DNA of 64,000 nt from Escherichia phage VEcB. The stretch's first letter is position 1. Every line of letters starts with the position of its first letter. The DNA is taken from the sequence record NC_052663.1; one strand, written 5' to 3'. Positions 52,340 to 64,000 of the stretch are shown here, piece after piece. The translations under genes and the position numbers were made by a program. The notes under the pieces were generated by a model. The model ran no database searches and had not been told where the DNA came from. It worked only from the letters and a program-made list of their open reading frames with translations.

Positions 52340-52455
52340 CTAATGAGAATCATTTTCGTTTGTAAATGAGAATCATTATCATTTAACTATGTAAGTGATA
52401 ATCATTCTCAGTAAGAGAATGAGAATCATTAGCAAATGAGAATTTTATCATTTAG
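52340..52455. promoter_or_regulatory. Cluster of five 13-bp palindromes AATGAGAATCATT (and variants) resembling the Fur-box core
   Basis: Copies at ~52342, 52365, 52397 (inverted), 52430, 52434; the 52362-52380 copy matches 16/19 positions of GATAATGATAATCATTATC. Confidence 0.5.
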
Positions 52456-53062: not shown

Positions 53063-53248
53063 AAAAGAAATGAAAAAAGATTAAAAAAGGGGTTGACGTT
53101 CCTCACCTGGTAGCGTATTATTCATCTTGTCGAGGGGGGCGAGGCACAACGACAATAAACAAAAGGAGGGCGCAATGTAGGACGGGCAAAGGTGAGGATC
53201 TCCACAATCCACCGTCACAATAACATTACTTATAAAAGGTTGATAACG

Positions 53249-53344
53249 ATGGTCAAGAAAGAAAACAGCTTGACGGTTGGAACGATTAACGCTATCATTC
53301 TCGCCGTTCCATTTTGGATTGTAGTTGCGGTTATTATTTTCTAA
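53249..53344 (+). CDS. Small hydrophobic peptide (31 aa), not in the ORF track
   Basis: ATG downstream of TTGACG-N17-TATTAT promoter-like sequence; single TM-like helix. Confidence 0.25.
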   Translation: MVKKENSLTVGTINAIILAVPFWIVVAVIIF

Positions 53345-53353
53345 AAAATATTC

Positions 53354-53413
53354 TTGACAACGTTTTTTAATCTGATAAGATGTATCACATAGGGCGGGAA
53401 ATGGTTTCCCGCC
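53354..53413 (+). promoter_or_regulatory. Sigma70-type promoter (TTGACA ... TAAGAT) plus conserved leader hairpin GGCGGGAAA-TGG-TTTCCCGCC
   Basis: -35 TTGACA, 16-nt spacer, -10 TAAGAT; perfect 9-bp stem with 3-nt loop starting near the predicted +1. Confidence 0.6.
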
Positions 53414-53435
53414 AAATCAAAGAAAGGGTAATGCA

Positions 53436-53798
53436 ATGAGCAAGCAAATCAATACTATCATGTTAAACCTGGTATCTTTCCGCGACGACGTGAAAAATCT
53501 TCCACGTGATGCAGTGGATGCACGGATCGAAAGCTATCGCTCACAGATCGCAACGCTACCGCTAAAACGTGATCAACATGCCGCTAATATGATGCTTAAT
53601 GCTATGCTTAAAAAGATGATTCAATGTGATCTTACCCTGGCTTATGAATATGCTGGCGATCTCTTTGTAACATATAGCAAGCCCGTACCAGGTATGAGCA
53701 CAACCGAAGAATTGCATGCCTTAAATCTGCGACAAGATGCATGGGATAACATGCGCCGTGTTATGGTATGGGTAGAAAGCGGTAAAATTTACGAATAA
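53436..53798 (+). CDS. Hypothetical early protein
   Basis: ORF track; preceded by sigma70 promoter plus conserved leader hairpin. Confidence 0.5.
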   Translation: MSKQINTIMLNLVSFRDDVKNLPRDAVDARIESYRSQIATLPLKRDQHAANMMLNAMLKKMIQCDLTLAYEYAGDLFVTYSKPVPGMSTTEELHALNLRQDAWDNMRRVMVWVESGKIYE

Positions 53799-53804
53799 AA
53801 ACGG

Positions 53805-53856
53805 TTGACATTGCACTAAAACCTGATAAACTATCTTAAAGCGGGAATAGTTCCCG
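53805..53856 (+). promoter_or_regulatory. Sigma70-type promoter (TTGACA ... TAAACT) plus hairpin variant AGCGGGAA-TA-GTTCCCGCT
   Basis: Same architecture as 53354-53413. Confidence 0.5.
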
Positions 53857-53875
53857 CTTACATAGGATAAAACTT

Positions 53876-54023
53876 TATGAAACAATATGTAATGAGTATT
53901 CACACCAAAAACGGCGCTACTGTTACGACTCCGGCACGGTTTGCACTTGTAAACCGTTGCAAGAGACTAAAACGAGAGCTAAAAAACAACCGTGCAACGG
54001 GCTTTAAACGCTGGGGAGGATAA
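53876..54023 (+). CDS. Candidate mini-ORF region (two overlapping ~43-aa frames, one Cys-rich, one basic); which is translated is unresolved
   Basis: Follows promoter plus hairpin at 53805-53856; weak RBS. Confidence 0.2.
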
Positions 54024-54025
54024 TC

Positions 54026-54286
54026 TTGTTTTTTCTAAAAGTTTTTGATAATGTGATCGCTTTTGAACATGCTACAACGTTCGACCTGGCGAGATACGCT
54101 ATCAGGTTTAAAGATAATGTTTATCCCCGTGCTGGCGGCGGTTACACTATTTTTAATCATCGTAATTCCCAACTAACGGATATAACTAATCCAGATCCGG
54201 GCGTGTATCGCATAGGCTGGCTACCGTCAAAAGACGCGGCAAGCATGTTTAAGGTATGTAAACTACTAACAGAAGAGGCGAACTAA
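54026..54286 (+). CDS. Hypothetical early protein (TTG start)
   Basis: GGGGAGGA RBS 5 nt upstream of TTG. Confidence 0.4.
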   Translation: MFFLKVFDNVIAFEHATTFDLARYAIRFKDNVYPRAGGGYTIFNHRNSQLTDITNPDPGVYRIGWLPSKDAASMFKVCKLLTEEAN

Positions 54287-54287
54287 C

Positions 54288-54842
54288 ATGGGGCGTGAGT
54301 ATGTGATCCAGTCCTGGGTAAAGCATGACGCTAATGATCCGCGCATAATACCAGATGACATGATCGATCACATGGTAGGGTATAGCGGGGAGCAGATAGG
54401 AAATCGAGCGGCAAAGAGCAACGGCAACACAAAGGCGCGATCCGTTCGCCCTGGTTGGCTGGCAAATGGTAACGCTGACATTGCAAGCGCCGCAGATCCA
54501 AGCGATGACGCTAAAAATAATCCCTTATACAGTATTGATCCGGCTTTTAAGGTGTTGGAAGAGTATCCCGCTAAATTAGCCGCACTAGATAAAGCATACG
54601 AAGAAAAACGGGTGGCATGGACGGTATACAACACCGCTAAAATGGTGCTAGATGCAAAATTGATTAAAGCCCAGGAGAAGATCAATAAACTTGTTGCAGT
54701 AGCGCAAGAGGAAGACCAGGACGACCAGGAGGAAGAGGAAGAAATCATGCCTACCCTGGAAGAGGAAGAGATCCAGCCATACATGCCGACGGAAGAGGAA
54801 AAAAGACAAGCCCTAAAAAATTATGAAAATTGTATTGTGTAA
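54288..54842 (+). CDS. Hypothetical early protein with strongly acidic C-terminal tail
   Basis: C-terminal EEDQDDQEEEEEIMPTLEEEEIQ. Confidence 0.45.
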   Translation: MGREYVIQSWVKHDANDPRIIPDDMIDHMVGYSGEQIGNRAAKSNGNTKARSVRPGWLANGNADIASAADPSDDAKNNPLYSIDPAFKVLEEYPAKLAALDKAYEEKRVAWTVYNTAKMVLDAKLIKAQEKINKLVAVAQEEDQDDQEEEEEIMPTLEEEEIQPYMPTEEEKRQALKNYENCIV

Positions 54843-54845
54843 GGC

Positions 54846-54951
54846 TTGACATATGCAAACAAGCCCCGTAATATGTACCACATAAAGCGGGGCAACGCCC
54901 CATAAGGTGAAATAAAAAATCACTTGACACCTGAAATCAGTAAGCTATAAT
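54846..54951 (+). promoter_or_regulatory. Tandem promoters: TTGACA-N17-TAATAT with hairpin variant (GCGGGGC-AAC-GCCCC), then consensus TTGACA-N16-TATAAT
   Basis: Two consensus -35 hexamers 78 bp apart, both upstream of the 59-aa ORF at 54989. Confidence 0.55.
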
Positions 54952-54988
54952 GCTTATATAGATTGAAACATTACTAAGGAATAAAAGC

Positions 54989-55168
54989 ATGGCTATTATT
55001 GCAAAGACTGAGATCGTAGGTTTAGATTCTATCATCCTGGCATATGAGGAAGCTATAGAAATGTATGTGGTTTCCTATGGTGATTATATCCGTGAATATA
55101 AATCTATTGATCTAGCTTTTGAATGCTATATTCGCCAGGTCAATAAAGCCTATGATGATTATCGTTAA
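54989..55168 (+). CDS. Small early protein (59 aa), not in the ORF track
   Basis: ATG with AAGGA RBS; tandem promoters upstream. Confidence 0.4.
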   Translation: MAIIAKTEIVGLDSIILAYEEAIEMYVVSYGDYIREYKSIDLAFECYIRQVNKAYDDYR

Positions 55169-55187
55169 AAGTTTTAGTCTTGTGCTA

Positions 55188-55216
55188 TTGACAACGAACG
55201 ATAGTACAAGCATAAT
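55188..55216 (+). promoter_or_regulatory. Sigma70-type promoter (TTGACA-N17-CATAAT)
   Basis: Consensus -35; upstream of 55264..55629. Confidence 0.5.
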
Positions 55217-55263
55217 AACTTTTATCGGGAATACTCCTAACTAATCAAAAGAGATTAAAGACT

Positions 55264-55629
55264 ATGGCTAAAAATATCAATGTTTCTGCTTATGCTACCC
55301 TGGCTAACACTGCTAAAATTGAACTATCCAGCATTGAAGCGGTACATATTAGCGCCCGTCGCTGGTTTCAAAAGTCTTATGGTAACACTTATTTCTCTTT
55401 GATGGTTGACGTTGAGATCGGCGGTAAACTGATTGAAGTCGTTAACGTTCCGTTTCAATATGGCTACGGGGATCATTTTGATACCGTTGCCCTAGAAGAG
55501 TTTAGCAAGGTTATCAACCTGGAAGGTAAAGAATTTTCAAATTATGCCTACCTTTCCCGTTTTTGCCGTGACAATGGGATCACTGTATACAGTCATGCAA
55601 GCGATGTTAAACGTAAAAAAGATTTATAA
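55264..55629 (+). CDS. Hypothetical early protein
   Basis: ORF track; own promoter (TTGACA ... CATAAT). Confidence 0.45.
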   Translation: MAKNINVSAYATLANTAKIELSSIEAVHISARRWFQKSYGNTYFSLMVDVEIGGKLIEVVNVPFQYGYGDHFDTVALEEFSKVINLEGKEFSNYAYLSRFCRDNGITVYSHASDVKRKKDL

Positions 55630-55635
55630 AAAGCA

Positions 55636-55696
55636 TTGACAGCACGAATAAAAAGCATATAATACTTATATCGAGAGCGGGAATAGTTCCCGCCTC
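55636..55696 (+). promoter_or_regulatory. Consensus sigma70 promoter (TTGACA-N16-TATAAT) plus hairpin GAGCGGGAA-TA-GTTCCCGCCTC
   Basis: Perfect -35 and -10 hexamers; hairpin near +1. Confidence 0.6.
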
Positions 55697-55717
55697 ACTG
55701 AAAAAGAGATTAACATC

Positions 55718-55957
55718 ATGGCTAAATCTAAAATGTTCTTAGGTCACAAAAACAAAACTCATTGGAATGTAAGCCTTTGGATCAACAACGATGAAGGTTT
55801 TTATAATCTTGCGCGTGAATTTATCGCAGCTAACACCAATAAGAATGACGCAGCGCGTGATATGATGTTATTTCTTGAAAGTATGGATCAAGATAAAACG
55901 CCAGACGGTTACAAGTTCAGTAAAACCGCGATCCGTGCCGCTATGGTTGGAATGTAA
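55718..55957 (+). CDS. Hypothetical early protein
   Basis: ORF track; promoter TTGACA-N16-TATAAT plus hairpin upstream. Confidence 0.45.
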   Translation: MAKSKMFLGHKNKTHWNVSLWINNDEGFYNLAREFIAANTNKNDAARDMMLFLESMDQDKTPDGYKFSKTAIRAAMVGM

Positions 55958-56052
55958 AGGAGACATAAAAATGAAACATCGTTCGACCTATCTCACAAAA
56001 CGTTTTAGCTTAGATCATAAATTGGGCTATTACGGAAGAAATAGAAAATAAT

Positions 56053-56112
56053 TTGACAACGTTTTAAATTAGTGTAAGATATATCACATAGGGCGGGAAA
56101 TGGTTTCCCGCC
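56053..56112 (+). promoter_or_regulatory. Sigma70-type promoter plus canonical leader hairpin; near-identical copy of the 53354-53430 element
   Basis: About 45 bp (ATCACATAGGGCGGGAAATGGTTTCCCGCCAAATCAAAGAAAGG) identical to the leader of 53436..53798. Confidence 0.6.
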
Positions 56113-56134
56113 AAATCAAAGAAAGGTTATCATT

Positions 56135-56362
56135 ATGGCTATCGTTATTGTTCGCGTATCCGGTACGGTTGGAATCTCTCAGGTAGTAGCAGTTATCACA
56201 GAGAAGAAAGGGGATGATCTTCACTCCTCCTTGAATAGCTGGGCGGTCGCTAACTTTGGGCAATGGTCGAGCGTTGAGTACATCGAAGCCTACCAGGTGC
56301 CGACGATTAGCCTAACCGATCTAAATGTTGATCGCTTGTTGTGCCTGGATGGATTAAACTAA
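56135..56362 (+). CDS. Hypothetical early protein
   Basis: ORF track; promoter/leader nearly identical to that of 53436..53798. Confidence 0.45.
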   Translation: MAIVIVRVSGTVGISQVVAVITEKKGDDLHSSLNSWAVANFGQWSSVEYIEAYQVPTISLTDLNVDRLLCLDGLN

Positions 56363-56370
56363 AAATAATC

Positions 56371-56427
56371 TTGACAAGATAACTAAAATCAGTAAAATGT
56401 AATGCATAGGGCGGCAATAGTGCCGCT
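56371..56427 (+). promoter_or_regulatory. Sigma70-type promoter (TTGACA-N16-TAAAAT) plus hairpin GGGCGGCA-ATA-GTGCCGCTC
   Basis: Same architecture; hairpin variant shared with 60181-60237. Confidence 0.55.
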
Positions 56428-56449
56428 CATAGTAAGAGAGATTATCAAA

Positions 56450-56665
56450 ATGGCTAATATCCGCACACTGTTAAAAAATGCAAGTCAAGTTTTATTTTCA
56501 GATGACGAGTATTTCAACAAAGACATTACAGGCGTGAAAAATTTAAAAGACGTGAAGGATGTTATCGGTATCCGTGGATCTTTACGTAAAGGTGACATAT
56601 ACGGTAACAAGGTGCAATATAAACTGTCAAAAGATTATGATTTTACTTTGACATTTATTTCATAA
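56450..56665 (+). CDS. Hypothetical early protein (start at internal ATG after the leader hairpin)
   Basis: Track ORF N-terminus is the translated hairpin; ATG with AGAGAG RBS. Confidence 0.45.
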   Translation: MANIRTLLKNASQVLFSDDEYFNKDITGVKNLKDVKDVIGIRGSLRKGDIYGNKVQYKLSKDYDFTLTFIS

Positions 56666-56671
56666 AACCGC

Positions 56672-56732
56672 TTGCAATACTGCAAAAATAAAGTAAACTG
56701 TATTCATCAAGGCGGTGGAATAGCTCACCGCC
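56672..56732 (+). promoter_or_regulatory. Sigma70-type promoter (TTGCAA-N16-TAAACT) plus hairpin GGCGGTG-GAATAGCT-CACCGCC
   Basis: Same architecture with a divergent loop. Confidence 0.5.
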
Positions 56733-56756
56733 TAACAAAGAGAAGAGGAAAACATC

Positions 56757-56927
56757 ATGATCACTTTCGCCACCCGTGAAGCCGCTCGCAACGTTGCACG
56801 TAAAGTTAATGCCGCCAACCTGGGCGCTACGCTTAAAGCCCCGGTAAAAGATGAATCAGGAAAATGGATCTTCCCTGGTCTGCGTCACGCTGATAAGCTG
56901 GGAACATTAACGTTAAAAAATAAATAA
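56757..56927 (+). CDS. Small early protein (56 aa), not in the ORF track
   Basis: ATG with AAGAGGAAAA RBS; promoter plus hairpin upstream. Confidence 0.4.
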   Translation: MITFATREAARNVARKVNAANLGATLKAPVKDESGKWIFPGLRHADKLGTLTLKNK

Positions 56928-56934
56928 TATCCGC

Positions 56935-56993
56935 TTGACAGTAGCATGATTTATAAGTAAAGTAACAACAACGGCGGGAAATGGTTTCCCGCC
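56935..56993 (+). promoter_or_regulatory. Sigma70-type promoter (TTGACA-N17-TAAAGT) plus canonical hairpin GGCGGGAAA-TGG-TTTCCCGCC
   Basis: Canonical hairpin identical to the 53392 and 61294 copies. Confidence 0.55.
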
Positions 56994-57013
56994 ATCAATA
57001 AAGAGATAAGATT

Positions 57014-57373
57014 ATGAAATCAGCAAAAGCAATTAAAACTTACATTGTGTCGGCTATTTCTTTTGAAGGTACTACAACAGAAAAAGAAAAGATCACCGAA
57101 CTGATGCGCCGTTTTAACTCTGAATACTGGTATCCCGATAATCAAAAACGTTACAATTATAACGTGATCAAGGCGATAGCCTCATGGTTACAAGGTTTAC
57201 CGTCAGACATTAACATCGCCTTTGATTATAACGAGATTGATCATTTATTAATTGAATGGAAGTACATAAAAGAAACAAGCAAAGAAACAACCGTTACCCG
57301 TGAGCGGGAAAATTATTGGTTATATATTGCAAGCATGATCGTAATCCTGGCAAAACAGCATAACGTGGCGTAA
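57014..57373 (+). CDS. Hypothetical early protein
   Basis: ORF track; promoter plus canonical hairpin upstream. Confidence 0.45.
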   Translation: MKSAKAIKTYIVSAISFEGTTTEKEKITELMRRFNSEYWYPDNQKRYNYNVIKAIASWLQGLPSDINIAFDYNEIDHLLIEWKYIKETSKETTVTRERENYWLYIASMIVILAKQHNVA

Positions 57374-57388
57374 TTAAGAGGAAGAAAC

Positions 57389-57526
57389 ATGAACGCATCA
57401 CAGCAGATCGAAAAATTCAACCGCAGCAAGGCGCGTAAAGATTGGAACGAAGAGATCACCAAAAAAGGCGACAAGCGGAACAAAACAAAAAGAGATCGCA
57501 GCACAAAAAGATACTGGAACGAATAA
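57389..57526 (+). CDS. Small highly basic protein (45 aa), not in the ORF track
   Basis: ATG with AAGAGGAAG RBS; K/R-rich; immediately followed by a rho-independent terminator. Confidence 0.4.
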   Translation: MNASQQIEKFNRSKARKDWNEEITKKGDKRNKTKRDRSTKRYWNE

Positions 57527-57530
57527 CAAA

Positions 57531-57556
57531 AAAGGGCGCAATAAGCGCCCTTTTAG
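57531..57556 (+). terminator. Rho-independent terminator
   Basis: GGGCGC-AATAA-GCGCCC followed by TTTT. Confidence 0.6.
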
Positions 57557-57644
57557 CTTATATAGAGGCTTGTTACCCATAGGCAATGGTAACGCCAGGA
57601 TAAGCCTATAAACCACGTTAGACAGCTTTACAGGAGCTTTAAAA

Positions 57645-57827
57645 ATGAAATTAGACGAAATAAGCAAGGCACTAGCCCAGGGGCAAAGGTTATGCGCCCG
57701 ATATCGTGATCAATATGGCTTCATAACCAGCGGCGTGATCCTGGGGATTGAAGGCAATAAGATTTTTATTGACACGTTGAAAAACGTTGTATATAGTGAC
57801 AATATAATCTCAATAAAACATATATGA
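57645..57827 (+). CDS. Hypothetical small protein
   Basis: ORF track. Confidence 0.4.
   Translation: MKLDEISKALAQGQRLCARYRDQYGFITSGVILGIEGNKIFIDTLKNVVYSDNIISIKHI
57769..57797 (+). promoter_or_regulatory. Sigma70-type promoter (TTGACA-N17-TATAGT) embedded in the 3' end of ORF 57645..57827
   Basis: Consensus hexamers; drives the signal-peptide gene at 57836. Confidence 0.45.
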
Positions 57828-57835
57828 GGCAAGAA

Positions 57836-58237
57836 ATGAAAAAATTATTGATCGCTGGTTTAATCTCTTTTGGCATGGTTGGAACATCTAGCGCGGCGAT
57901 ATCCTCCACAGTAGCAGAATTAAGCGCCGTTGATGCAATGGAAAACGTCATGCTTATTAATAATGCGATCCCCGATGAAATCATGGAGGATTCACACATG
58001 ATCGCTTATGGTGCTGTTACACAACTAACGGCAAAAATAGATAAATCTATTGTTAACGGCTTAAATGAAGATGTGCCATGTGAAATTATTACCAGTGTGC
58101 TGACTACTCAAAATTTTACGCCGTGGTTAAAAAGTATTCAAAAAGTACACAGTACAGCCGCAGATCGTAGTAATGAAAAACTAGTGTCAGCACTTGCAAC
58201 GTATACCCTAGCAAAATGCACCGAGATAAAAGATTGA
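57836..58237 (+). CDS. Predicted secreted/periplasmic protein
   Basis: Signal peptide MKKLLIAGLISFGMVGTSSA; promoter TTGACA-N17-TATAGT inside the 3' end of the upstream ORF. Confidence 0.45.
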   Translation: MKKLLIAGLISFGMVGTSSAAISSTVAELSAVDAMENVMLINNAIPDEIMEDSHMIAYGAVTQLTAKIDKSIVNGLNEDVPCEIITSVLTTQNFTPWLKSIQKVHSTAADRSNEKLVSALATYTLAKCTEIKD

Positions 58238-58262
58238 CAACATAGAAAGCACGTTATAAGAT
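58234..58262 (+). promoter_or_regulatory. Sigma70-type promoter (TTGACA-N17-TAAGAT), no hairpin
   Basis: Consensus -35; upstream of 58285..58587. Confidence 0.5.
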
Positions 58263-58284
58263 ACACACAACAAAGGAGAACTAC

Positions 58285-58587
58285 ATGAACGGCATAGCTA
58301 AAACGTTTTTTCTTTTTTCTGGTGTAAATGATCCATCAATAAAAGTCGATAGTGTAAAAGAAAACAATACTATCACCGCTAAATTGTTTCAAGATGAAAC
58401 AAATAACGTGCTAATCATTAATCTTAAAGAAATAACGAAAGGTTATTATACTATTGCTTACCATGCAATCTATCATGCTGGTACTAGTGAGGAAGTGCAA
58501 ACAAGCAACAACGAAAGCGCGGCGCTACCTGGTGATCTGGTGCTGGGCGTTATCAGTTTAATTGTCAATGATTTTTTTAAGGAGTAA
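58285..58587 (+). CDS. Hypothetical protein
   Basis: ORF track; promoter TTGACA ... TAAGAT upstream; RBS AAAGGAG. Confidence 0.45.
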   Translation: MNGIAKTFFLFSGVNDPSIKVDSVKENNTITAKLFQDETNNVLIINLKEITKGYYTIAYHAIYHAGTSEEVQTSNNESAALPGDLVLGVISLIVNDFFKE

Positions 58588-58591
58588 AACC

Positions 58592-58687
58592 ATGCCCTAT
58601 TTACATTTATTTTTCGGGATCTTATTGTCAGGATCTTTTTTCTTCTGTATACTTGTTTCTATTGTAAACCACGTTTTAAGACATTAA
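58592..58687 (+). CDS. Small hydrophobic peptide (31 aa), not in the ORF track
   Basis: ATG 4 nt after the upstream stop; RBS AAGGAG embedded in the upstream gene end. Confidence 0.3.
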   Translation: MPYLHLFFGILLSGSFFFCILVSIVNHVLRH

Positions 58688-58696
58688 GGAAACAAC

Positions 58697-58816
58697 ATGA
58701 AAATTATTCCCGTACAGTATAGCGTAATAAATCCAGCATATGAGGAAGGAAGGAAAACAAGCATGGTTTTATGTTATATTGCTACTATAGCCATGTTGTT
58801 ATATATTGTGTTTTAA
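58697..58816 (+). CDS. Small peptide with C-terminal hydrophobic helix (39 aa), not in the ORF track
   Basis: ATG with AAGGAAAC RBS. Confidence 0.3.
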   Translation: MKIIPVQYSVINPAYEEGRKTSMVLCYIATIAMLLYIVF

Positions 58817-58845
58817 TAGGTTTTATAGTTGTACGCTTTAAAGGC

Positions 58846-58880
58846 TTGACAATTTTTTGTTATGCTTTAAACTATATCTT
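58846..58880 (+). promoter_or_regulatory. Sigma70-type promoter (TTGACA ... TAAACT)
   Basis: Consensus -35; upstream of 58917..59240. Confidence 0.45.
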
Positions 58881-58916
58881 GAAAACGGCAAAGGCCGCAA
58901 ACAAAAGGGTAAAATT

Positions 58917-59240
58917 ATGAAATCTGTGATCGGTGTTTATTTGGATAACTCTGATTTTTTCTATCATCGCGCTCGTTTCCTTGATGCGATTGAAATGATA
59001 GAATCAGGCTTTAAAGAGTATCGCCTTGCACATGATGACCTGGAAGCATTACAGGGCAATAGTGTTTTTACATTGCAAGCTAAAGCACTATGCAAAAGCC
59101 GAATCGACATTGCGAGCAAAAAGATAGAACGCGGCATGTCCTGGTTGCGCACCGCAGAAATCAACATGGGGCAATGGTACGGCGAAAACTTAGAAAATAA
59201 ACATGCTTTTGTCAATGTAGAAAATATTGAAGATTATTGA
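58917..59240 (+). CDS. Hypothetical early protein (start at internal ATG)
   Basis: Promoter TTGACA at ~58846; RBS AAAGGGTAAAA. Confidence 0.45.
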   Translation: MKSVIGVYLDNSDFFYHRARFLDAIEMIESGFKEYRLAHDDLEALQGNSVFTLQAKALCKSRIDIASKKIERGMSWLRTAEINMGQWYGENLENKHAFVNVENIEDY

Positions 59241-59302
59241 TTGACAGCACACTGAACGGGTAGTATATTGTATCTCATAGAGCGGGGAAATGGTTTCCCC
59301 GC
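59241..59302 (+). promoter_or_regulatory. Sigma70-type promoter (TTGACA-N17-TATATT) plus hairpin GCGGGGAAA-TGG-TTTCCCCGC
   Basis: Same architecture. Confidence 0.55.
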
Positions 59303-59322
59303 CTTAAAAGAAGAGATAAGCT

Positions 59323-59607
59323 ATGAAGATCACAAAAGCACTTTCCAACTATGCAGCACGTCGCGGCTTATGTTTAACCGTTGAAAACCTGGGGAAAGAA
59401 GATTTTTTGTGCTTTTGGGAGCTTGAGAATGATAATGAGTGGATCTTCTCTTATTCTATCTGCGAAGATCAAAACGGTTGTTTATTAACCTGGCGCGGTA
59501 ATATCTATCTACCGGAAGAAATCAAAGAAGAATTGCCAGGCACGATCATGACTGAGAAACAGCTTAAGGAAGTGATTAATTTTGTAGGGCAAAACATTAA
59601 AAAATAA
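59323..59607 (+). CDS. Hypothetical early protein
   Basis: ORF track; promoter plus hairpin upstream. Confidence 0.45.
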   Translation: MKITKALSNYAARRGLCLTVENLGKEDFLCFWELENDNEWIFSYSICEDQNGCLLTWRGNIYLPEEIKEELPGTIMTEKQLKEVINFVGQNIKK

Positions 59608-59608
59608 T

Positions 59609-59668
59609 TTGACACTAGGCAAACAACGTAGTAAAGTTTATCACATAGGGCGGGAAATGGTTTCCCGC
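59609..59668 (+). promoter_or_regulatory. Sigma70-type promoter (TTGACA-N17-TAAAGT) plus hairpin GGGCGGGAAA-TGG-TTTCCCGC
   Basis: Same architecture. Confidence 0.55.
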
Positions 59669-59691
59669 TCACAACAGAAGAGAAACACATC

Positions 59692-59862
59692 ATGATCCCG
59701 ACTATGTTTTACGTATCGCGCAAAGGTCACAATATTTTTTGGTCTGAAGATTTAAATGAAGCCATGACGTTTGCCCGTGATCGTGTTGCTATCGGTGGCG
59801 TTAACATTACTGTAACCGATGAAAACGGCATTGAATACTATAACGGCGACGATGAAGAGTAA
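59692..59862 (+). CDS. Small early protein (56 aa), not in the ORF track
   Basis: ATG with AGAAGAGAAA RBS after promoter plus hairpin. Confidence 0.4.
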   Translation: MIPTMFYVSRKGHNIFWSEDLNEAMTFARDRVAIGGVNITVTDENGIEYYNGDDEE

Positions 59863-59869
59863 TTAATAA

Positions 59870-59890
59870 GGCGGGGGAGTATTCCCCGCC
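59870..59890 (+). promoter_or_regulatory. Leader-type hairpin (GGCGGGGGA-GTA-TTCCCCGCC) without an adjacent consensus promoter
   Basis: Occurs between a stop codon and the RBS of 59910..60179. Confidence 0.4.
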
Positions 59891-59909
59891 GTCAATAAAG
59901 AGGTAAATC

Positions 59910-60179
59910 ATGAAAATATCTTTGGACGTTGCAATCAAGGCCATCGAATCCGGTTACACCCTGGTTAAAGATGATAAGGCTAAAACCGTGCACCACGTTA
60001 ACAAGGAAACAGGCGAAAGCATGATCACATATAAAGCCGCCTACTTTCTCCAATCAGTAGCAGATCCGCGCGTACAACGCCAGGTTACGGCGGCTATTGC
60101 TAAAAAATTATGTGCTTTACAGGGTATAAGTTTTAACGAGATCGCCCCGTGTTTTGACTGGTCGAGCTTGAAAAAATAG
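59910..60179 (+). CDS. Hypothetical early protein
   Basis: ORF track; preceded by a leader-type hairpin without an obvious promoter. Confidence 0.45.
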   Translation: MKISLDVAIKAIESGYTLVKDDKAKTVHHVNKETGESMITYKAAYFLQSVADPRVQRQVTAAIAKKLCALQGISFNEIAPCFDWSSLKK

Positions 60180-60180
60180 T

Positions 60181-60237
60181 TTGACAACAATTATAAATCG
60201 GGTAGAATGTATTTCGTAGGGCGGCAATAGTGCCGCT
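60181..60237 (+). promoter_or_regulatory. Sigma70-type promoter (TTGACA-N16-TAGAAT) plus hairpin GGGCGGCA-ATA-GTGCCGCTC
   Basis: Hairpin identical to the 56408-56427 copy. Confidence 0.55.
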
Positions 60238-60259
60238 CATAACTAAAAGAGAAATCAGC

Positions 60260-60454
60260 ATGGCGCTTAAAAAACTAACAAGCAATACTCGTTGGGATGA
60301 AATCGACGGAGAAGTTTACATTTTCGCCCGTAAACCAGGTGATCAAAAATGGTCAAAGGCTTTTACTTGCCACCCTGCAACAATAGATCTAATAAAAAGT
60401 AAAGGTTTACGTGAAGCGGTAGCAAGAAGTTTACTGATCCCTTATAAAAAATAG
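60260..60454 (+). CDS. Hypothetical small protein (start at internal ATG)
   Basis: Promoter TTGACA-N16-TAGAAT plus hairpin upstream. Confidence 0.4.
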   Translation: MALKKLTSNTRWDEIDGEVYIFARKPGDQKWSKAFTCHPATIDLIKSKGLREAVARSLLIPYKK

Positions 60455-60455
60455 T

Positions 60456-60517
60456 TTGACAATACGCGGTTATCTGGTAAAGTGTACGACATAGGGCGGG
60501 GCAATAAGGCAACGCCC
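60456..60517 (+). promoter_or_regulatory. Sigma70-type promoter (TTGACA-N16-TAAAGT) plus degenerate GC-rich hairpin
   Basis: Same architecture. Confidence 0.45.
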
Positions 60518-60535
60518 ATTAATGAGGGTAGAATC

Positions 60536-60640
60536 ATGTTAGAGAAAATTTTCACGGTTGTAGTAGTTGGCCTGGCGTTATCGGTTGGATTGGTTGCAAC
60601 TATGGCTAACATGATCCTATCTTCCCACGGTATTGGATAA
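60536..60640 (+). CDS. Small hydrophobic peptide (34 aa), not in the ORF track
   Basis: ATG with GAGGG RBS; single TM-like helix. Confidence 0.3.
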   Translation: MLEKIFTVVVVGLALSVGLVATMANMILSSHGIG

Positions 60641-60650
60641 GGTGAATCAA

Positions 60651-60866
60651 ATGATCACGAATAAGACAGGTAAAACAGAATTTTTACGCGGCTTGCAAAT
60701 AGGTAAGCCTGAGATCTGGCATTGCACTAAATCCGCGCATAATGAAATGAAAGATTTTACCGCTACTTTACAACGTGTTAAAATATCTATCACACAGAAA
60801 AAAGCCTTGTTAGTAGTAGAAAACGAGATACCGCAAACCATTATTATTGTCGAGCGTACAGCATGA
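60651..60866 (+). CDS. Hypothetical small protein (start at internal ATG)
   Basis: RBS AAGGTGA. Confidence 0.4.
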   Translation: MITNKTGKTEFLRGLQIGKPEIWHCTKSAHNEMKDFTATLQRVKISITQKKALLVVENEIPQTIIIVERTA

Positions 60867-61249
60867 AAACAGAAATCATTATTGAAATCATCAACGGTTA
60901 TAAAGAAGCCTTTATTTTTGCTGAATCAGCCAGGGATCATGAAGGTAATTTTATTGATAACTTAGACGATTATGATTTTTCAGATCAAGCCCACCAGCGG
61001 ATCATTCATGACGTAGCGGCTTATTGTGATGCCAATGATGCTGCTATCTCTGAGGCAATGAGCGACGGCGCAACAGCAAACCAGATCGGGAATGATTTAC
61101 ATTTTACCCGTAACGGTCACGGCGTAGGCTTTTGGGATCGCCCTGAAATATACACTACTAACACCGCCAACCGCCTAACAAATGCAGCTAAATTAATGCC
61201 ATCGGTGCATGCTTACATTGGTGAAGATAATTTGATTTATATCGAATAA
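60863..61249 (+). CDS. Hypothetical acidic protein
   Basis: ORF track; overlapping stop/start; D/E-rich. Confidence 0.4.
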   Translation: MKTEIIIEIINGYKEAFIFAESARDHEGNFIDNLDDYDFSDQAHQRIIHDVAAYCDANDAAISEAMSDGATANQIGNDLHFTRNGHGVGFWDRPEIYTTNTANRLTNAAKLMPSVHAYIGEDNLIYIE

Positions 61250-61255
61250 AAAGTA

Positions 61256-61314
61256 TTGACACCGATCCCCAATATGGTATTATTTACCACGTAGGCGGGA
61301 AATGGTTTCCCGCC
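61256..61314 (+). promoter_or_regulatory. Sigma70-type promoter (TTGACA-N16-TATTAT) plus canonical hairpin
   Basis: Canonical GGCGGGAAA-TGG-TTTCCCGCC. Confidence 0.6.
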
Positions 61315-61337
61315 AGGTAATCAAAAAGGTAAATACT

Positions 61338-61727
61338 ATGCGCAACCTGGTTTCTGTTTCTAACGTTGAAAAATTTCAATCTTTACAGGGTATCGTTAAC
61401 AACGTAGCGCCTTTTTTAGTCAACGGCTTGATTGCAAAGATGAAAAATAAACATCATGCGGCATGGTCTGCTTACTGCTTTGATAATGATGAAAAAGCGG
61501 CTGAAATGATGTTAAATATGCTGTTAGACAGTGTAGAATCATCTTTACCGGAAAACATCGCAGAAGAGATCACCTATCGTTATAATATGGCGATCACTTA
61601 CCAGGAGGTTGCGCAATTTAATATGATGGACGATGACGAACAACAGGATCAGGAAATGTTTTGGGAGTATGCAGATCGTCAATCGGCTTTTGATGAAAAG
61701 TTAGCAATGTATTATAACGAATATTAA
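61338..61727 (+). CDS. Hypothetical acidic protein (start at internal ATG after the leader hairpin)
   Basis: Promoter TTGACA-N16-TATTAT plus canonical hairpin; acidic tract MMDDDEQQDQEMFWEY; terminator downstream. Confidence 0.45.
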   Translation: MRNLVSVSNVEKFQSLQGIVNNVAPFLVNGLIAKMKNKHHAAWSAYCFDNDEKAAEMMLNMLLDSVESSLPENIAEEITYRYNMAITYQEVAQFNMMDDDEQQDQEMFWEYADRQSAFDEKLAMYYNEY

Positions 61728-61740
61728 TACACGGTAAAAG

Positions 61741-61770
61741 AAAGGGGCGCACTAAGCGCCCTTTTTTTTT
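61741..61770 (+). terminator. Rho-independent terminator
   Basis: GGGGCGC-ACTAA-GCGCCC followed by a T9 run. Confidence 0.7.
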
Positions 61771-62115
61771 GTATTCTTTTTTCACGATGGAAGTAACACG
61801 TAAAGAATAGGCGTAAAGGTGGCGTAAAACAGCCTAAAACCGATTATAACCGCTTAAACAAGGTAGGAATGATTAATCACCTTACCAGGATGAAAAAGCT
61901 GTTATAAAGCTATCTAGGGCGTTTAAAGAACATAGGAAATAATTTGCTTTTTATCTTGCCTTTTATCCTGCTTTTGATTATTATTATGGAACGGGCGGCA
62001 CCTGGGGACAGGGGAAGATAATCACCGGAAGATCCCGCTATATATTGATAGCTAACATCTATCAAACAACAAAACATCAAAGGAATAAACTATCAAATCT
62101 TTACAATCTTATCTA

Positions 62116-62144
62116 TTGACCGATAAATCATAACCGTTTAATAT
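62116..62144 (+). promoter_or_regulatory. Sigma70-type promoter (TTGACC-N17-TAATAT)
   Basis: Near-consensus hexamers upstream of 62193..62429. Confidence 0.45.
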
Positions 62145-62192
62145 TGTTTTTAGAGGGTAGAACATACCCAAAACGAAAACAGGAAAAAGAAA

Positions 62193-62429
62193 ATGAAAGA
62201 AGTCATGATCCTCAAAAAATCACCTATTTTACGTGGTGGCTTTATCGCTTACTCTGATGATCTGTTAATTGCAACGGTTGCAAAAATACTAAAATCAGAA
62301 GAGGATAGTAAAAACGGCGTTTATCGTATCTGTTTCACCCGTGGGAAATTGCAAGGCAAGATCGCCTATGCTTTTGATTTACAAGATGTAAATGATAAAA
62401 TCTGCGCTGTTATTGATTATGCAAAATAA
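62193..62429 (+). CDS. Hypothetical small protein
   Basis: Promoter TTGACC-N17-TAATAT upstream. Confidence 0.4.
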   Translation: MKEVMILKKSPILRGGFIAYSDDLLIATVAKILKSEEDSKNGVYRICFTRGKLQGKIAYAFDLQDVNDKICAVIDYAK

Positions 62430-62441
62430 TTAACTTTCTTA

Positions 62442-62470
62442 TTGACACCGGATCACGCTTACATTATTAT
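62442..62470 (+). promoter_or_regulatory. Sigma70-type promoter (TTGACA-N17-TATTAT) with degenerate leader (CACGTAGGGCAAATCATTTT)
   Basis: Consensus -35; leader keeps the CAC-TAGGGC start but lost the stem. Confidence 0.5.
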
Positions 62471-62516
62471 TTATCACGTAGGGCAAATCATTTTAAACGG
62501 TAAACGAGGAATCACC

Positions 62517-62900
62517 ATGAGCAATATCATCAACCTGGCGGCTACTGTAAACGGTAAAGACTTTAACGGCGCTGTAGATCGTGATCCTATGTGGTGCTTG
62601 TCAGTATTTAAAGGTGATTTAGTTGAAGTTAGAACAACCGAAGGGTATAGCGATGATTATAAATGCGAGATCCATTTACATAACTGGTACACGGGTAAAA
62701 CTTATGCGCTGAATCACGCGTTTATCGGGAAAATTGAATATCGTGAGATGATCGACGAAGAAACGGGGCAAGATTTTAGCCAGCATGTTTATATTCGTTC
62801 CGAAACATTAGCCGAACGTTTGATCGAGAAAATGAAAGCAAAAAATAAAATTAATTTATCTCATTGGATTGATATAACAAACGATCCTGCTTATCAGTAA
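62517..62900 (+). CDS. Hypothetical protein (start at internal ATG)
   Basis: Promoter TTGACA-N17-TATTAT upstream; terminator downstream. Confidence 0.45.
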   Translation: MSNIINLAATVNGKDFNGAVDRDPMWCLSVFKGDLVEVRTTEGYSDDYKCEIHLHNWYTGKTYALNHAFIGKIEYREMIDEETGQDFSQHVYIRSETLAERLIEKMKAKNKINLSHWIDITNDPAYQ

Positions 62901-62912
62901 ATAACATTTCAT

Positions 62913-62945
62913 ACCAGGGCGCACAAAGCGCCCTTTCTTTTTACC
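62913..62945 (+). terminator. Rho-independent terminator closing the small-gene array
   Basis: AGGGCGC-ACAAA-GCGCCCT followed by TTCTTTTT. Confidence 0.6.
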
Positions 62946-63149
62946 TAAATAAAGATGATAGCTTTTACCTATCAAAAACGTTCACCGAAAAAAGTGAATA
63001 GATCGCGGTATCGAGCTAATCAAGGAGCAGATGAATAACCATACCATGAAGATCATAAGGCGTTTACAACGTGTTTTAGACCGCTTGTTTTTAATTTCTT
63101 CATGCAACTATCTGGCAAAAACAGCCTTTTTCTTGTCTTTCCTCTTAAA

Positions 63150-63222
63150 TAATAATCATTCTCATTTATAGCTGATTATTTATGCAATAAACTGAATAAT
63201 GTAATAATGATAATCATTCTTA
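63150..63222. promoter_or_regulatory. Two further Fur-box-like palindromes
   Basis: AATAATCATTCTCATT at ~63151 and TAATAATGATAATCATTCT at ~63202 (16/19 to the Fur-box consensus, core AATGATAATCATT exact). Confidence 0.45.
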
Positions 63223-64000
63223 ACTTAAGGCCATCTAACCTATAAAATAATAAGCTATCTAACTAAATTAAAGCTAATTATCTCACCTTTATTTATAACT
63301 TACTGTTACTATCTCATTGATAACCTTATATTAAACAACAATAACTAATATAAATCATTACCAAGCTAAATATAATCTATCTAACCTTTAAAACTATAAC
63401 TATAATCTATTGAATTATTGCACAAAGTAACTATTAAATCGTTAGTAACATTACTAAATAATTCATATCCTATCTATTTATGATCTAACCTTTACCTTCT
63501 TATCTATTACCTAAGTAATCATTTCATACAATAACTATAACAAGAAATATAATTCGCAAGCGTATCATTAGCAGCCTATGCCGGACACATAGGCGGCTAA
63601 TAATAACGCAACTACACACCCCACATAATAACCATCACCGATAGTTATTATTTGTGCTTATGTAGCTTGCAACAATTGCAAGCGCAACAATATACATGGT
63701 ATATTGTATTCCCTTACATTGTTGCGGTGCGTTATTATTAGCTAATGTTTAGAACATTGGCTATAATATAAGCTATCCAATAATAAACATAATGAATAAT
63801 GATACTGAAATGAATAATGACACTGATGATCATAATGCGCCACCTTCCAGGGGGCGCTATGTGAACACAAAGAAATCTTTCTTGTCAAGAAAAATATTAC
63901 CACTATTGCGCAAAATTATTTTTATCTGAATAGATGATTTTTCATACTATTGCCCCCTTGATTATTACTATTTGTTGAGTATAGTTATCCCTATTTGTTG

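What the first reader, a model, noticed from the sequence alone, without database searches (positions are those of the whole stretch)
59870..59890. Leader-type hairpin without its own promoter
GGCGGGGGA-GTA-TTCCCCGCC sits between the stop of the 56-aa ORF and the RBS of 59910..60179 with no TTGACA/TATAAT pair upstream. This favours an RNA-level role (processing site or stability element within a polycistronic transcript) over a purely promoter-linked operator.
Basis: seen in the sequence. Interest (0 to 1): 0.45.

Follow-up and report, generated by a model that had tools for sequence, protein, structure and literature searches.

The report
Promoter-less copy of early-gene cassette hairpin
The hairpin is real and has no promoter, but it is one stray copy of a repeated promoter-hairpin-ribosome-site unit that phi92-like coliphages place before their early genes and use as a recombination joint, so it is an understandable by-product of gene shuffling, not a special leader.

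Summary
GGCGGGGGA-GTA-TTCCCCGCC (59870-59890) folds stably (-17.3 kcal/mol, z -3.4). It lies between the stop of a 56-aa ORF and the Shine-Dalgarno of an 89-aa ORF, with no sigma-70-like promoter upstream.

The window is a phi92-like coliphage (Justusliebigvirus). The hairpin belongs to a family of about 13 GC hairpins (consensus GGCGGGAAA-TGG-TTTCCCGCC) in the early region, 53.3-61.3 kb. Every other copy starts 9-12 nt after the -10 of a TTGACA-N16/17-TAnnnT promoter and about 20 nt before an ATG. This copy keeps the hairpin, spacer, SD and ATG and lacks only the promoter.

It sits inside a two-gene module (56 aa, hairpin, 89 aa) flanked by two complete cassettes. Phage phi92 lacks the module and has a single chimeric cassette, with the crossover inside the hairpin arm. 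In other relatives, homology breaks within a few bases of this hairpin.

These units resemble the PeSL cassettes of T4-like phages, but here the stem-loop lies in the transcribed leader and has no U-tract.

The 89-aa gene is most likely expressed by read-through from the promoter at 59609. A functionless recombination scar remains a serious rival.

The parts
59609..59637 (+). Sigma-70-like promoter TTGACA-N17-TAAAGT of the cassette upstream of the 56-aa ORF. It is the only promoter-like site available to transcribe both the 56-aa and the 89-aa ORFs.
59648..59670 (+). Canonical cassette hairpin GGGCGGGAAA-TGG-TTTCCCGCTC, 11 nt after the -10. It forms the left flank of the two-gene module.
59692..59862 (+). 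56-aa ORF, conserved phage protein of unknown function (phrog_20874, E 4e-45).
59860..59869 (+). TAATTAATAA: the stop codon plus an AT-rich spacer that occupies the place of the promoter and leader of a normal cassette.
59870..59890 (+). The finding: a promoter-less hairpin GGCGGGGGA-GTA-TTCCCCGCC, a member of the early-cassette hairpin family.
59891..59909 (+). Cassette-type spacer and SD (GTCAATAAAGAGGTAAATC). The run TCAATAAAGAG is shared with the cassette at 56973.
59910..60179 (+). 89-aa ORF with no Pfam or PHROG family. In phages phiWec181 and A7_1 the same gene has its own promoter and hairpin.
60181..60238 (+). Right-flank cassette: TTGACA-N16-TAGAAT plus hairpin GGGCGGCA-ATAG-TGCCGCTC (60219-60238), upstream of the gp243-like ORF.
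53393..53413 (+). Family member with promoter (GGCGGGAAATGGTTTCCCGCC).
53839..53859 (+). Family member with promoter (AAGCGGGAATAGTTCCCGCTT).
55673..55696 (+). Family member with promoter (GCGGGAA-TAG-TTCCCGC core).
56092..56112 (+). Family member with promoter.
56409..56428 (+). Family member with promoter (type B, GGGCGGCAATAGTGCCGCTC).
56710..56733 (+). Family member (AGGCGGTG-GAATAGCT-CACCGCCT) behind a weaker TTGCAA-N16-TAAACT promoter.
56973..56993 (+). Family member with promoter. Its downstream spacer is the closest match to that of the promoter-less copy.
59282..59302 (+). Family member with promoter, upstream of the gp242-like ORF.
60494..60517 (+). Imperfect family member (GGGCG..GCAATAAGGC..CGCCC) behind the promoter at 60456, upstream of a 34-aa membrane-peptide ORF.
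61294..61314 (+). Family member with promoter.

Best explanation
The hairpin is a promoter-less copy of the repeated unit that phi92-like phages place in front of their immediate-early genes. That unit consists of a strong sigma-70 promoter, a short leader, a GC hairpin, an A-rich spacer, an SD and an ATG. This copy keeps everything from the hairpin to the ATG at the normal spacing. The promoter and leader are replaced by the 3' end of the 56-aa ORF.

It forms the internal joint of a two-gene module (56 aa, hairpin, 89 aa) that is bounded by two complete cassettes and moves as one piece. The 89-aa gene is therefore transcribed by read-through from the promoter at 59609, and the hairpin forms in the intercistronic RNA.

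Shown: family membership; absence of a promoter; conservation of complementarity rather than of half-site spacing; presence or absence of the module with a crossover inside the hairpin arm; clustering of rearrangement breakpoints at this hairpin.

Inferred: (a) at the DNA level the hairpins serve as homology patches and as breakage or template-switch points that shuffle early genes, as PeSLs do in T4-like phages; (b) at the RNA level this copy does what any stable GC stem-loop between cistrons does, acting as a barrier to exonucleolytic or 5'-end-dependent decay, and it does not terminate transcription. I put about 0.85 on the identity and origin part, and about 0.35-0.4 on a selected RNA-stability role for this particular copy.
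For: Family and architecture. There are 12 perfect-stem GC hairpins on the + strand between 53393 and 61294 and none of this type elsewhere in the window. 11 of the 12 lie 9-12 nt after a TTGACA-N16/17-TAnnnT promoter and 19-23 nt before an ATG. Across six genomes and contigs there are 71 sense copies with 38 distinct cores, and the copy after the 56-aa ORF is the only one that consistently lacks a promoter. In the whole genome of the closest relative, ESCO8, the family is confined to the first 10 kb or so of the early region; the other hairpins there are classic A-run/T-run terminators.

Structure is conserved, not spacing. 88.3% of cells are paired against 73.3% in shuffles (0 of 500 reach it). 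9 of 10 pairs show changes on both sides. The covariation score is 0.457 against 0.185 in shuffles and at most 0.139 in slid controls.

Module. The single gp242-gp243 cassette of phi92 equals the window's left cassette up to GGGCGG and its right cassette from CAATAGTGCC onward.

Breakpoints. Homology to relatives ends at query positions 173, 199, 206 or 225, or begins at 214. All of these lie within about 25 nt of the hairpin.

The genes downstream have their own cassettes elsewhere. In A7_1 and phiWec181 the 89-aa gene, and in A7_1 also the 45-aa gene that replaces it in tuntematon, each carry their own promoter and hairpin.

No terminator features. The stem is followed by GTCAATAAAG and not by a T-run.

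Retention. The hairpin follows the 56-aa ORF in two genera and in at least six sequence variants, and all of them can fold.
Against: Nothing here shows that the RNA hairpin does anything. There are no transcript ends and no expression data, and a literature search found no transcriptome for this subfamily. The strand-specific test is inconclusive: 10 of 13 copies fold slightly better in the sense direction, but wobble counts are 20 G.U against 16 A.C. The promoter-less copy has an atypical loop, scores about equally on both strands (19.7 against 18.5 bits) and may be flipped relative to the ZCKP1 version, which suggests relaxed constraint. Phage UP17 lacks the GC hairpin altogether. Palindromes can be kept by arm-to-arm repair without selection. 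Some breakpoints lie at the edges of the hairpin and not inside shared sequence (for example phAPEC8, with an ATA microhomology). That points to illegitimate events as much as to homologous exchange. The sequences compared are closely related and not independent.
Confidence: 0.55

Rival explanations
1. It is a pure scar. The hairpin is what remains of a cassette whose promoter was lost when the 56-aa gene was joined to it. It has no function in this context and persists because palindromes repair themselves and too little time has passed for decay.
For: The loop and flanks are atypical and the copy scores equally on both strands. There is a possible loop inversion and G-run length variation among close relatives. 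UP17 does without it. Predicted SD accessibility is the same with the hairpin, with shuffled arms, or with the hairpin deleted: 0.676, 0.669 and 0.742.
Against: The hairpin is retained after the 56-aa ORF in both Justusliebigvirus and Phapecoctavirus, whichever gene follows. Three independent deletions (the ZCKP1 type, phAPEC8 and the tuntematon type) stop at or after its 3' edge and do not remove it. Every variant keeps at least 7 pairs.
Confidence: 0.25
2. It is a sense-strand terminator or attenuator, like the stem-loop of T4-type PeSLs. It would limit read-through from the promoter at 59609 into the 89-aa gene.
For: In RB49 and phi1 a PeSL stem-loop cloned between a promoter and lacZ reduced expression about as much as the rrnB T1 terminator (PMC2839356, read). 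The stem here is GC-rich and stable.
Against: There is no T-run after the stem on the + strand, and the terminator scan does not call it on the + strand. The 89-aa gene has no other promoter, so efficient termination would silence it. In canonical cassettes the hairpin lies downstream of the start site, so a terminator there would also abort the cassette's own transcripts.
Confidence: 0.08
3. It is a double-stranded DNA operator: a palindrome bound by a phage or host repressor that shuts off early promoters. This copy would be an inactive leftover.
For: The sequence is palindromic, it lies at about +3 to +25 of strong promoters, and the GGCGGGAA half-site is conserved as far as rV5.
Against: The spacing between GGCGG and CCGCC varies from 8 to 12 nt, and stems change by paired substitutions. 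A dimeric DNA binder would not tolerate that. At least six strong early promoters have no hairpin. No candidate binding protein was identified.
Confidence: 0.05
4. It is a minus-strand rho-independent terminator, as automatic annotation of phage Paula labels these hairpins.
For: The scan calls 59890..59870 on the - strand, followed by TTATTAATTA. Paula annotates the homologous site as a terminator on the strand opposite to the genes.
Against: All genes in this region are on the + strand, so there is no convergent transcript to stop. The other family members have no T-run on the - strand either. The T-rich stretch is simply the complement of the stop codon and the AT-rich spacer.
Confidence: 0.02

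Closest known systems
PeSL (promoter-early stem-loop) cassettes of T4-like phages RB49/phi1, PST/T4 and nt-1/KVP40 (Arbiol et al. 2010, PMC2839356; Comeau et al. 2014, PMC4122927)
   Same: Both are repeated intergenic units in a region of small genes of unknown function. Both combine a near-consensus sigma-70 promoter (TTGACA-N17-TATAAT type) with a stem-loop that has a G-rich arm, a loop and a C-rich arm, followed by the SD and ATG of the next gene. In both, close relatives differ by insertion or deletion of the genes between two units, leaving one chimeric unit with a crossover in or next to the stem-loop (here phi92 against the window).
   Different: The host phages here are Stephanstirmvirinae, with a few copies in rV5, not T4-like. 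The stem-loop begins 9-12 nt after the -10, in the transcribed leader, and not between the -35 and -10 or over the -10. It has no U-tract, so its role as a terminator is doubtful. The copy in question has no promoter at all. Mini-circles and promoter or terminator activity have not been tested.
5'-terminal stabilising stem-loops of E. coli mRNAs (ompA 5' UTR type; from my own knowledge of Emory, Bouvet and Belasco 1992)
   Same: The canonical family members would place a stable hairpin a few nucleotides from the predicted 5' end of each early mRNA, upstream of the SD.
   Different: Start sites are predicted, not mapped. The predicted overhang of 2-5 nt is borderline for protection. The promoter-less copy is internal to a transcript and could act this way only after an upstream cleavage.
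Intercistronic stem-loops that protect upstream mRNA from 3' exonucleases (REP elements such as malE-malF; from my own knowledge)
   Same: A GC-rich stem-loop just after a stop codon, inside an operon, with no U-tract.
   Different: There is no sequence relation to REP. It is a single 9-pair stem. No data exist on differential stability of the two cistrons.
Rho-independent terminators of the same genome
   Same: A GC-rich stem with a short loop.
   Different: The genuine terminators of this phage are AAAGGGGC-GAAA-GCCCCTTT types flanked by A-runs and T-runs (for example 57530-57554, 61734-61772 and 62916-62934). The family discussed here lacks the T-run.

Membership tests
Early promoter-hairpin-SD cassette family of phi92-like phages (defined here) | GC-rich stem of 7-10 pairs of the GGCGG...CCGCC type with a short loop, on the gene-sense strand | tested here: met
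   The leave-one-out model R2 finds the site at 19.7 bits, E 1.2e-3.
Early promoter-hairpin-SD cassette family of phi92-like phages (defined here) | A-rich spacer, SD and ATG 19-23 nt downstream of the stem | tested here: met
   19 nt from the stem to the ATG. The run TCAATAAAGAG is shared with the cassette at 56973.
Early promoter-hairpin-SD cassette family of phi92-like phages (defined here) | TTGACA-N16/17-TAnnnT promoter ending 9-12 nt upstream of the stem, with a CACATAG-like leader | tested here: not met
   The upstream sequence is coding sequence followed by TAATTAATAA, and no site reaches 9 of 12.
Early promoter-hairpin-SD cassette family of phi92-like phages (defined here) | Family-typical loop AAT(A/G)(G/C) in the sense orientation | tested here: not met
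   The loop region is GAGTA. The minus strand reads AATAC, and the site scores about equally on both strands.
PeSL cassettes of T4-like phages | Strong sigma-70-like early promoter within the unit | tested here: not met
   Not met for this copy. Met for the other 11 copies in the window.
PeSL cassettes of T4-like phages | Stem-loop between the -35 and -10, or overlapping the -10 | tested here: not met
   Family stems start 9-12 nt after the -10. The PeSL layout is taken from PMC2839356.
PeSL cassettes of T4-like phages | Located between small, variable genes, with indels between close relatives bounded by two units that collapse into one chimeric unit | tested here: met
   phi92 compared with the window; other arrangements.
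PeSL cassettes of T4-like phages | Stem-loop acts as a transcription terminator or attenuator | not testable with these tools
   The sequence argues against an intrinsic terminator because there is no T-run, but activity needs an assay.
PeSL cassettes of T4-like phages | Excised mini-circles carrying one chimeric unit plus the cargo gene | not testable with these tools
   Requires inverse PCR on infected cells or virions.
Rho-independent terminator | GC-rich stem-loop immediately followed by a U-run on the transcribed strand | tested here: not met
   The + strand tail is GTCAATAAAG. Only the - strand is called, and there it has no gene to terminate.
Curated RNA families (Rfam 15) | A match at or above a family's gathering score | tested here: not met
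   No match at any hairpin in 52000-64000, even at E up to 1.
5'-terminal stabilising stem-loop | Hairpin within a few unpaired nucleotides of the mRNA 5' end | tested here: not met
   This copy has no promoter, so it has no 5' end nearby. For the canonical copies the feature is only inferred from the distance between the -10 and the stem.

The most novel reading that the evidence does not exclude
The hairpins are a shared RNA operator. A phage-encoded or host protein (a translational repressor, an RNA chaperone or an endoribonuclease) recognises the stem-loop about 8 nt upstream of the SD in a dozen or more immediate-early mRNAs and coordinates their shut-off or decay. The promoter-less copy would then be kept because it holds the 89-aa gene in that post-transcriptional regulon even though the gene has no promoter of its own. 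This would be a regulon-wide early-mRNA control element in a phage group with no described transcriptional programme.
Probability: 0.1. Interest if true: 0.7.

Novelty: new variant of a known kind. Interest (0 to 1): 0.3.

Why it matters
On its own the hairpin is a minor feature. It is useful as a natural dissection of a repeated unit, because it shows that the hairpin-SD half can exist and be inherited without the promoter half. Together with the phi92 comparison, it shows that cassette-mediated shuffling of early genes, so far described for T4-like phages, also operates in phi92/rV5-like phages that are widely used in phage-therapy collections. In practical terms, automatic annotation currently labels these hairpins as minus-strand terminators, which is almost certainly wrong. 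The cassettes also mark where gene content is likely to differ between otherwise nearly identical therapeutic phages.

Tried and rejected
1. Chance hairpin: rejected.

2. Hidden promoter upstream: none at 9 of 12 or better between 59638 and 59997. I also read 59820-59869 by eye for -35/-10 pairs and found none.

3. Known RNA family: no Rfam match.

4. RBS insulator idea: predicted accessibility of the SD and AUG is the same with the hairpin, with shuffled arms, and with the hairpin deleted. Dropped.

5. Strand-asymmetry test for RNA-level against DNA-level selection: the sense strand is slightly favoured in folding energy, but G.U and A.C counts are 20 and 16. Inconclusive, and not used as evidence.

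6. Function of the flanking proteins: the 56-aa ORF is phrog_20874 (unknown function); the 89-aa ORF has no Pfam or PHROG family. No help.

7. More homologues from IMG/VR: only two loci. A metagenome pattern scan gave 27 stretches of which only 3 were relevant; the rest were chance matches to the 20-mer.

8. Literature: the rV5 genome paper and a 2025 Stephanstirmvirinae paper do not mention promoter-proximal hairpins or cassette shuffling, and no transcriptome for the subfamily was found.

9. MAFFT alignment of all 12 hairpins put the 4-nt-loop types out of register. I replaced it with covariance-model alignment.

Full report
WHAT THE WINDOW IS. A 2.5-kb stretch around the finding is 94-99% identical to about 170 coliphage genomes of the phi92 group (Stephanstirmvirinae: Justusliebigvirus and Phapecoctavirus). 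The best match is phage ESCO8 at 98.8%. The region from about 53 kb to the end of the window is the start of the early, rightward block of small genes of unknown function. It corresponds to ESCO8 73.2 to 62.1 kb on the minus strand.

THE OBSERVATION. The sequence at 59870-59890 is GGCGGGGGAGTATTCCCCGCC.
- As RNA it forms nine pairs (seven G-C, one G.U, one A-U) around a three-base loop: -17.3 kcal/mol, z = -3.39, and none of 200 shuffles folds as well.
- It stays formed in a 211-nt context.
- It lies 7 nt after the TAA of a 56-aa ORF (59692-59862), 6 nt before AAAGAGG (59897-59903) and 19 nt before the ATG of an 89-aa ORF (59910-60179).
- The consensus scan finds no + strand promoter-like site between the ones starting at 59609 and 59998.

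IT IS ONE MEMBER OF A FAMILY. A scan for perfect GC-rich stems finds twelve hairpins of one type on the + strand between 53393 and 61294. The consensus is GGCGGGAAA-TGG-TTTCCCGCC, with variants GGGCGGCA-ATAG-TGCCGCTC, AAGCGGGAA-TAG-TTCCCGCTT and AGGCGGTG-GAATAGCT-CACCGCCT. The only other GC hairpins in the window are ordinary terminators.
- Eleven of the twelve begin 9-12 nt after the -10 of a TTGACA-N16/17-TAnnnT promoter and end 19-23 nt before an ATG preceded by an SD. An imperfect thirteenth copy sits behind the promoter at 60456.
- At least six equally strong promoters in the same region have no hairpin. One of them (62442) keeps the conserved leader TATCACGTAGGGC but not the stem. Promoter and hairpin are therefore separable in both directions.
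- In the complete ESCO8 genome this hairpin type occurs only in the first 10 kb or so of the early block. The other stems are AAAGGGGC-GAAA-GCCCCTTT-type terminators.
- A covariance model built from eight window copies recovers 71 sense-strand copies (38 distinct cores) in the window, ESCO8, tuntematon, A7_1 and several metagenomic contigs.
- The only copy that consistently lacks a promoter is the one after the 56-aa ORF. The 56703 type has a weaker TTGCAA promoter, and one ESCO8 copy has a mutated -35.
- A model built without the finding still detects it at 19.7 bits, E about 1e-3. It scores 18.5 bits on the opposite strand, whereas canonical copies score 35-43 bits in sense and 17-25 in antisense. 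The stem is therefore typical of the family, while the loop and flanks are not.
- rV5, from a different subfamily, has a few early promoters followed after 10 nt by GGCGGGAA-TGT-TTCCCGCC or GGCGGGAA-AAC-TTCCCGCC.
- No Rfam family matches any of these hairpins.

WHAT IS CONSERVED IS THE ABILITY TO PAIR.
- On the model-based alignment 88.3% of cells are standard pairs, against 73.3% after shuffling (0 of 500 shuffles reach it).
- Nine of ten pairs show changes on both sides.
- The covariation score is 0.457, against 0.185 for shuffles and at most 0.139 for slid controls.
- Caveats: the alignment was fitted to the model, it includes both strands of some loci, and the sequences are related.
- The distance between the GGCGG and CCGCC blocks varies from 8 to 12 nt among copies. 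That fits a folded single strand and does not fit a dimeric protein site on duplex DNA.
- I could not decide whether the folded strand that matters is RNA or DNA. Ten of thirteen copies fold slightly better in the sense direction. However, G.U pairs (sense only) and A.C pairs (which would be wobble in antisense) number 20 and 16.

THE PROMOTER-LESS COPY SITS AT A RECOMBINATION JOINT.

1. Phage phi92 lacks both the 56-aa and the 89-aa gene. Its single cassette between gp242 and gp243 is identical to the window's left cassette (59590-59654) through promoter, leader and GGGCGG. From CAATAGTGCCGCTC onward it is identical to the window's right cassette (60226-60270). The crossover therefore lies inside the 5' arm of the hairpin. 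The window thus carries a two-gene module, with one promoter and the promoter-less hairpin in its middle, flanked by two complete cassettes. This is the pattern described for PeSL-mediated indels in RB49 and phi1 (PMC2839356).

2. A blastn search of 59692-60179 against phage genomes shows where homology stops:
- at the stop codon in UP17, which has an AT-rich hairpin in place of the GC hairpin;
- exactly at the 3' end of the hairpin in ZCKP1, AV126, ECML-183-2 and TSP7_1;
- 7 nt after it in phAPEC8 and 10C3, where it is fused directly to the next cassette's hairpin with that cassette's promoter deleted;
- just past the ATG in tuntematon, ESCO13 and about 14 others in the sampled rows, where a different 45-aa gene follows;
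- in phiWec181 and A7_1, homology only begins at the SD-ATG junction.

3. In A7_1 and phiWec181 the 89-aa gene has its own full cassette (TTGACA-N17-TAGTAT, then 10 nt, then GGGGCG-ACAA-CGCCCC). In A7_1 the 45-aa gene, which lies next to it, also has its own promoter and hairpin.

4. Between the window and ESCO8 (98.8% identical) the hairpin upstream of the 56-aa ORF differs in type: GGGCGGGAAATGGTTTCCCGCTC against GGGCGGCAATAGTGCCGCTC. Cassettes therefore convert one another.

VARIANTS OF THE PROMOTER-LESS COPY. The following forms were found:
- GGCGGGGGAGTATTCCCCGCC in the window, Paula, ESCO8 and phAPEC8;
- versions with one G fewer or one G more, and GGCGGGGGGTATTCCCCGCC, in metagenomic and viral contigs;
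- GGCGGGATTAATCCCGCC in tuntematon;
- GGCGGGGAATACTTCCCGCC in ZCKP1.

The outer stem never changes, and the apical part and loop change while pairing is kept. The G-run differences could be sequencing errors. The minus strand of the window copy matches the ZCKP1 copy better than the plus strand does (19 against 17 identities). The ZCKP1 loop AATAC is a normal family loop, also found in the 45-aa gene's own cassette in A7_1. This suggests that the window version is a flipped hairpin. The evidence for that rests on a few loop bases and is weak.

HOW IT MOST LIKELY WORKS. Shown:
- it is a family copy without a promoter;
- the hairpin-spacer-SD-ATG half is intact;
- no T-run follows it;
- the nearest upstream promoter-like site is at 59609;
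- the copy is the internal joint of a module that is present or absent as a unit.

Inferred:
- the 89-aa gene is read from a bicistronic transcript that starts near 59645;
- the stem-loop forms in the RNA between the two cistrons;
- there it can act only as a generic structural barrier, either to 3' exonucleases working back into the 56-aa cistron, or to 5'-end-dependent decay if the AU-rich UAAUUAAUAA just upstream is cut;
- at the DNA level the hairpins act as patches of homology and as points of breakage or template switching that reshuffle early genes.

Predicted SD accessibility does not depend on the hairpin, so I dropped the idea of an RBS insulator. For the canonical copies, a predicted start 6-8 nt after the -10 would leave 2-5 unpaired bases before the stem. 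That resembles 5'-terminal stabilising hairpins known from E. coli (my own knowledge), but no start sites have been mapped.

RIVALS.
- A functionless scar is the strongest rival. The atypical loop, the equal scores on both strands, UP17 doing without the hairpin, and self-repair of palindromes all favour it. Against it, the hairpin is retained across two genera, and three independent deletions stop at its 3' edge.
- A sense-strand terminator, as shown for a T4-type PeSL stem-loop, is unlikely because there is no T-run and the downstream gene has no other promoter.
- A duplex-DNA operator is unlikely because the half-site spacing varies.
- The minus-strand terminator given in the Paula annotation has nothing to terminate.

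COMPARISON WITH WHAT IS KNOWN. The closest described system is the PeSL cassette of T4-like phages (PMC2839356, PMC4122927).
- Shared features: a near-consensus sigma-70 promoter, a G-arm/loop/C-arm stem, the SD and ATG of a small gene of unknown function, and indels bounded by two units that collapse into a chimeric one.
- Differences: a different phage lineage; the stem lies in the transcribed leader and not within the promoter; there is no terminator-like tail; and the copy in question has no promoter.

My literature searches found no description of these units in rV5- or phi92-like phages. That is not proof that none exists.

VERDICT. The feature is real and has been explained. The better-supported account is that this is a promoter-less copy of a PeSL-like early cassette at a gene-shuffling joint. 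Interest is modest.

Noticed in passing
window 53354-61314 (+ strand): About 13 repeated units (TTGACA promoter, CACATAG-like leader, GC hairpin, A-rich spacer, SD, ATG) precede the small early genes. I found no description of them for phi92/rV5-like phages in the literature I could search.
   Followed up: yes
L044 (phi92) 3537-3645 compared with window 59590-59654 and 60226-60270: phi92 lacks the 56-aa and 89-aa genes. It has one chimeric cassette with the crossover inside the hairpin's 5' arm (GGGCGG|CAATAG).
   Followed up: yes
window 59648-59670 compared with ESCO8 (L009 16419-16454, minus strand): Two phages that are 98.8% identical carry different hairpin types at the same cassette (type A in the window, type B in ESCO8). 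This suggests conversion between cassettes.
   Followed up: partly
window 59870-59890 compared with L006 (ZCKP1) 879-898: The loop of the promoter-less hairpin looks inverted relative to the ZCKP1 version. The window's minus strand GGCGGGGAATACTCCCCCGCC compares with ZCKP1 GGCGGGGAATACTTCCCGCC at 19 identities, against 17 for the plus strand.
   Followed up: partly
L043 (Enterococcus phage heks, MT119359.1, record positions about 177-900): One end of this 39.7-kb Enterococcus phage record carries phi92-like coliphage genes and an 89%-identical copy of the cassette. It is probably a chimeric assembly or contamination, and it comes from the same wastewater phage collection as tuntematon.
   Followed up: partly
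one search hits H18-H20 (MG065639, MG065645, MG065689): Records named Campylobacter phage A150, A145 and A110a (about 146 kb, unannotated) are 96.7% identical to this coliphage region. The host assignment looks doubtful.
   Followed up: no
L001 (phage Paula) regulatory features, e.g. locus 4066-4091: Automatic annotation labels the cassette hairpins as terminators on the strand opposite to all the genes. This is almost certainly a prediction artefact.
   Followed up: yes
window 62442-62500: A strong promoter (TTGACA-N17-TATTAT) keeps the family leader TTATCACGTAGGGC but has no stem after it. It looks like a cassette that has lost its hairpin, the mirror image of the finding.
   Followed up: partly
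window 55188-55240: The promoter TTGACA-N17-CATAAT is followed by ...TATCGGGAATACTCCTAAC. This contains the family apical motif GGGAATACTCC without the outer stem and may be a decayed hairpin.
   Followed up: no
window 60456-60640: This cassette has an imperfect hairpin (GGGCG..CGCCC with an internal loop) and precedes a conserved 34-aa hydrophobic peptide ORF (60536-60640, phrog_14631). The mechanical ORF list extends it to a GTG at 60482, inside the promoter and hairpin.
   Followed up: partly
L007 (UP17) 871-940: Where other phages have the GC hairpin, UP17 has TTGACA-N18-TAAAAT with an AT-rich hairpin AAGCTGTATTTTTAAAATACAGCTT overlapping the -10. That layout is closer to T4-type PeSLs.
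   Followed up: no
L045 (rV5), locus positions about 20723, 18164 and 14682 counted on the reverse strand: rV5 has a few early promoters followed after 10 nt by GGCGGGAA-loop-TTCCCGCC hairpins, so the architecture extends to Vequintavirinae at lower density.
   Followed up: partly
window 54891-54989: A weak, sub-threshold Rfam match to RT-17 RNA (27.4 bits against a gathering score of 40.4, E 0.089). Probably chance.
   Followed up: no
ESCO8 record 61162-62888 (L009 11162-12888); by the offset used here (window position = 126095 minus ESCO8 position) about window 63200-64000 and beyond the window's end: A stretch of about 1.7 kb with no annotated gene inside the early block. rV5 is reported to have a similar non-coding box (PMC3606486).
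   Followed up: no
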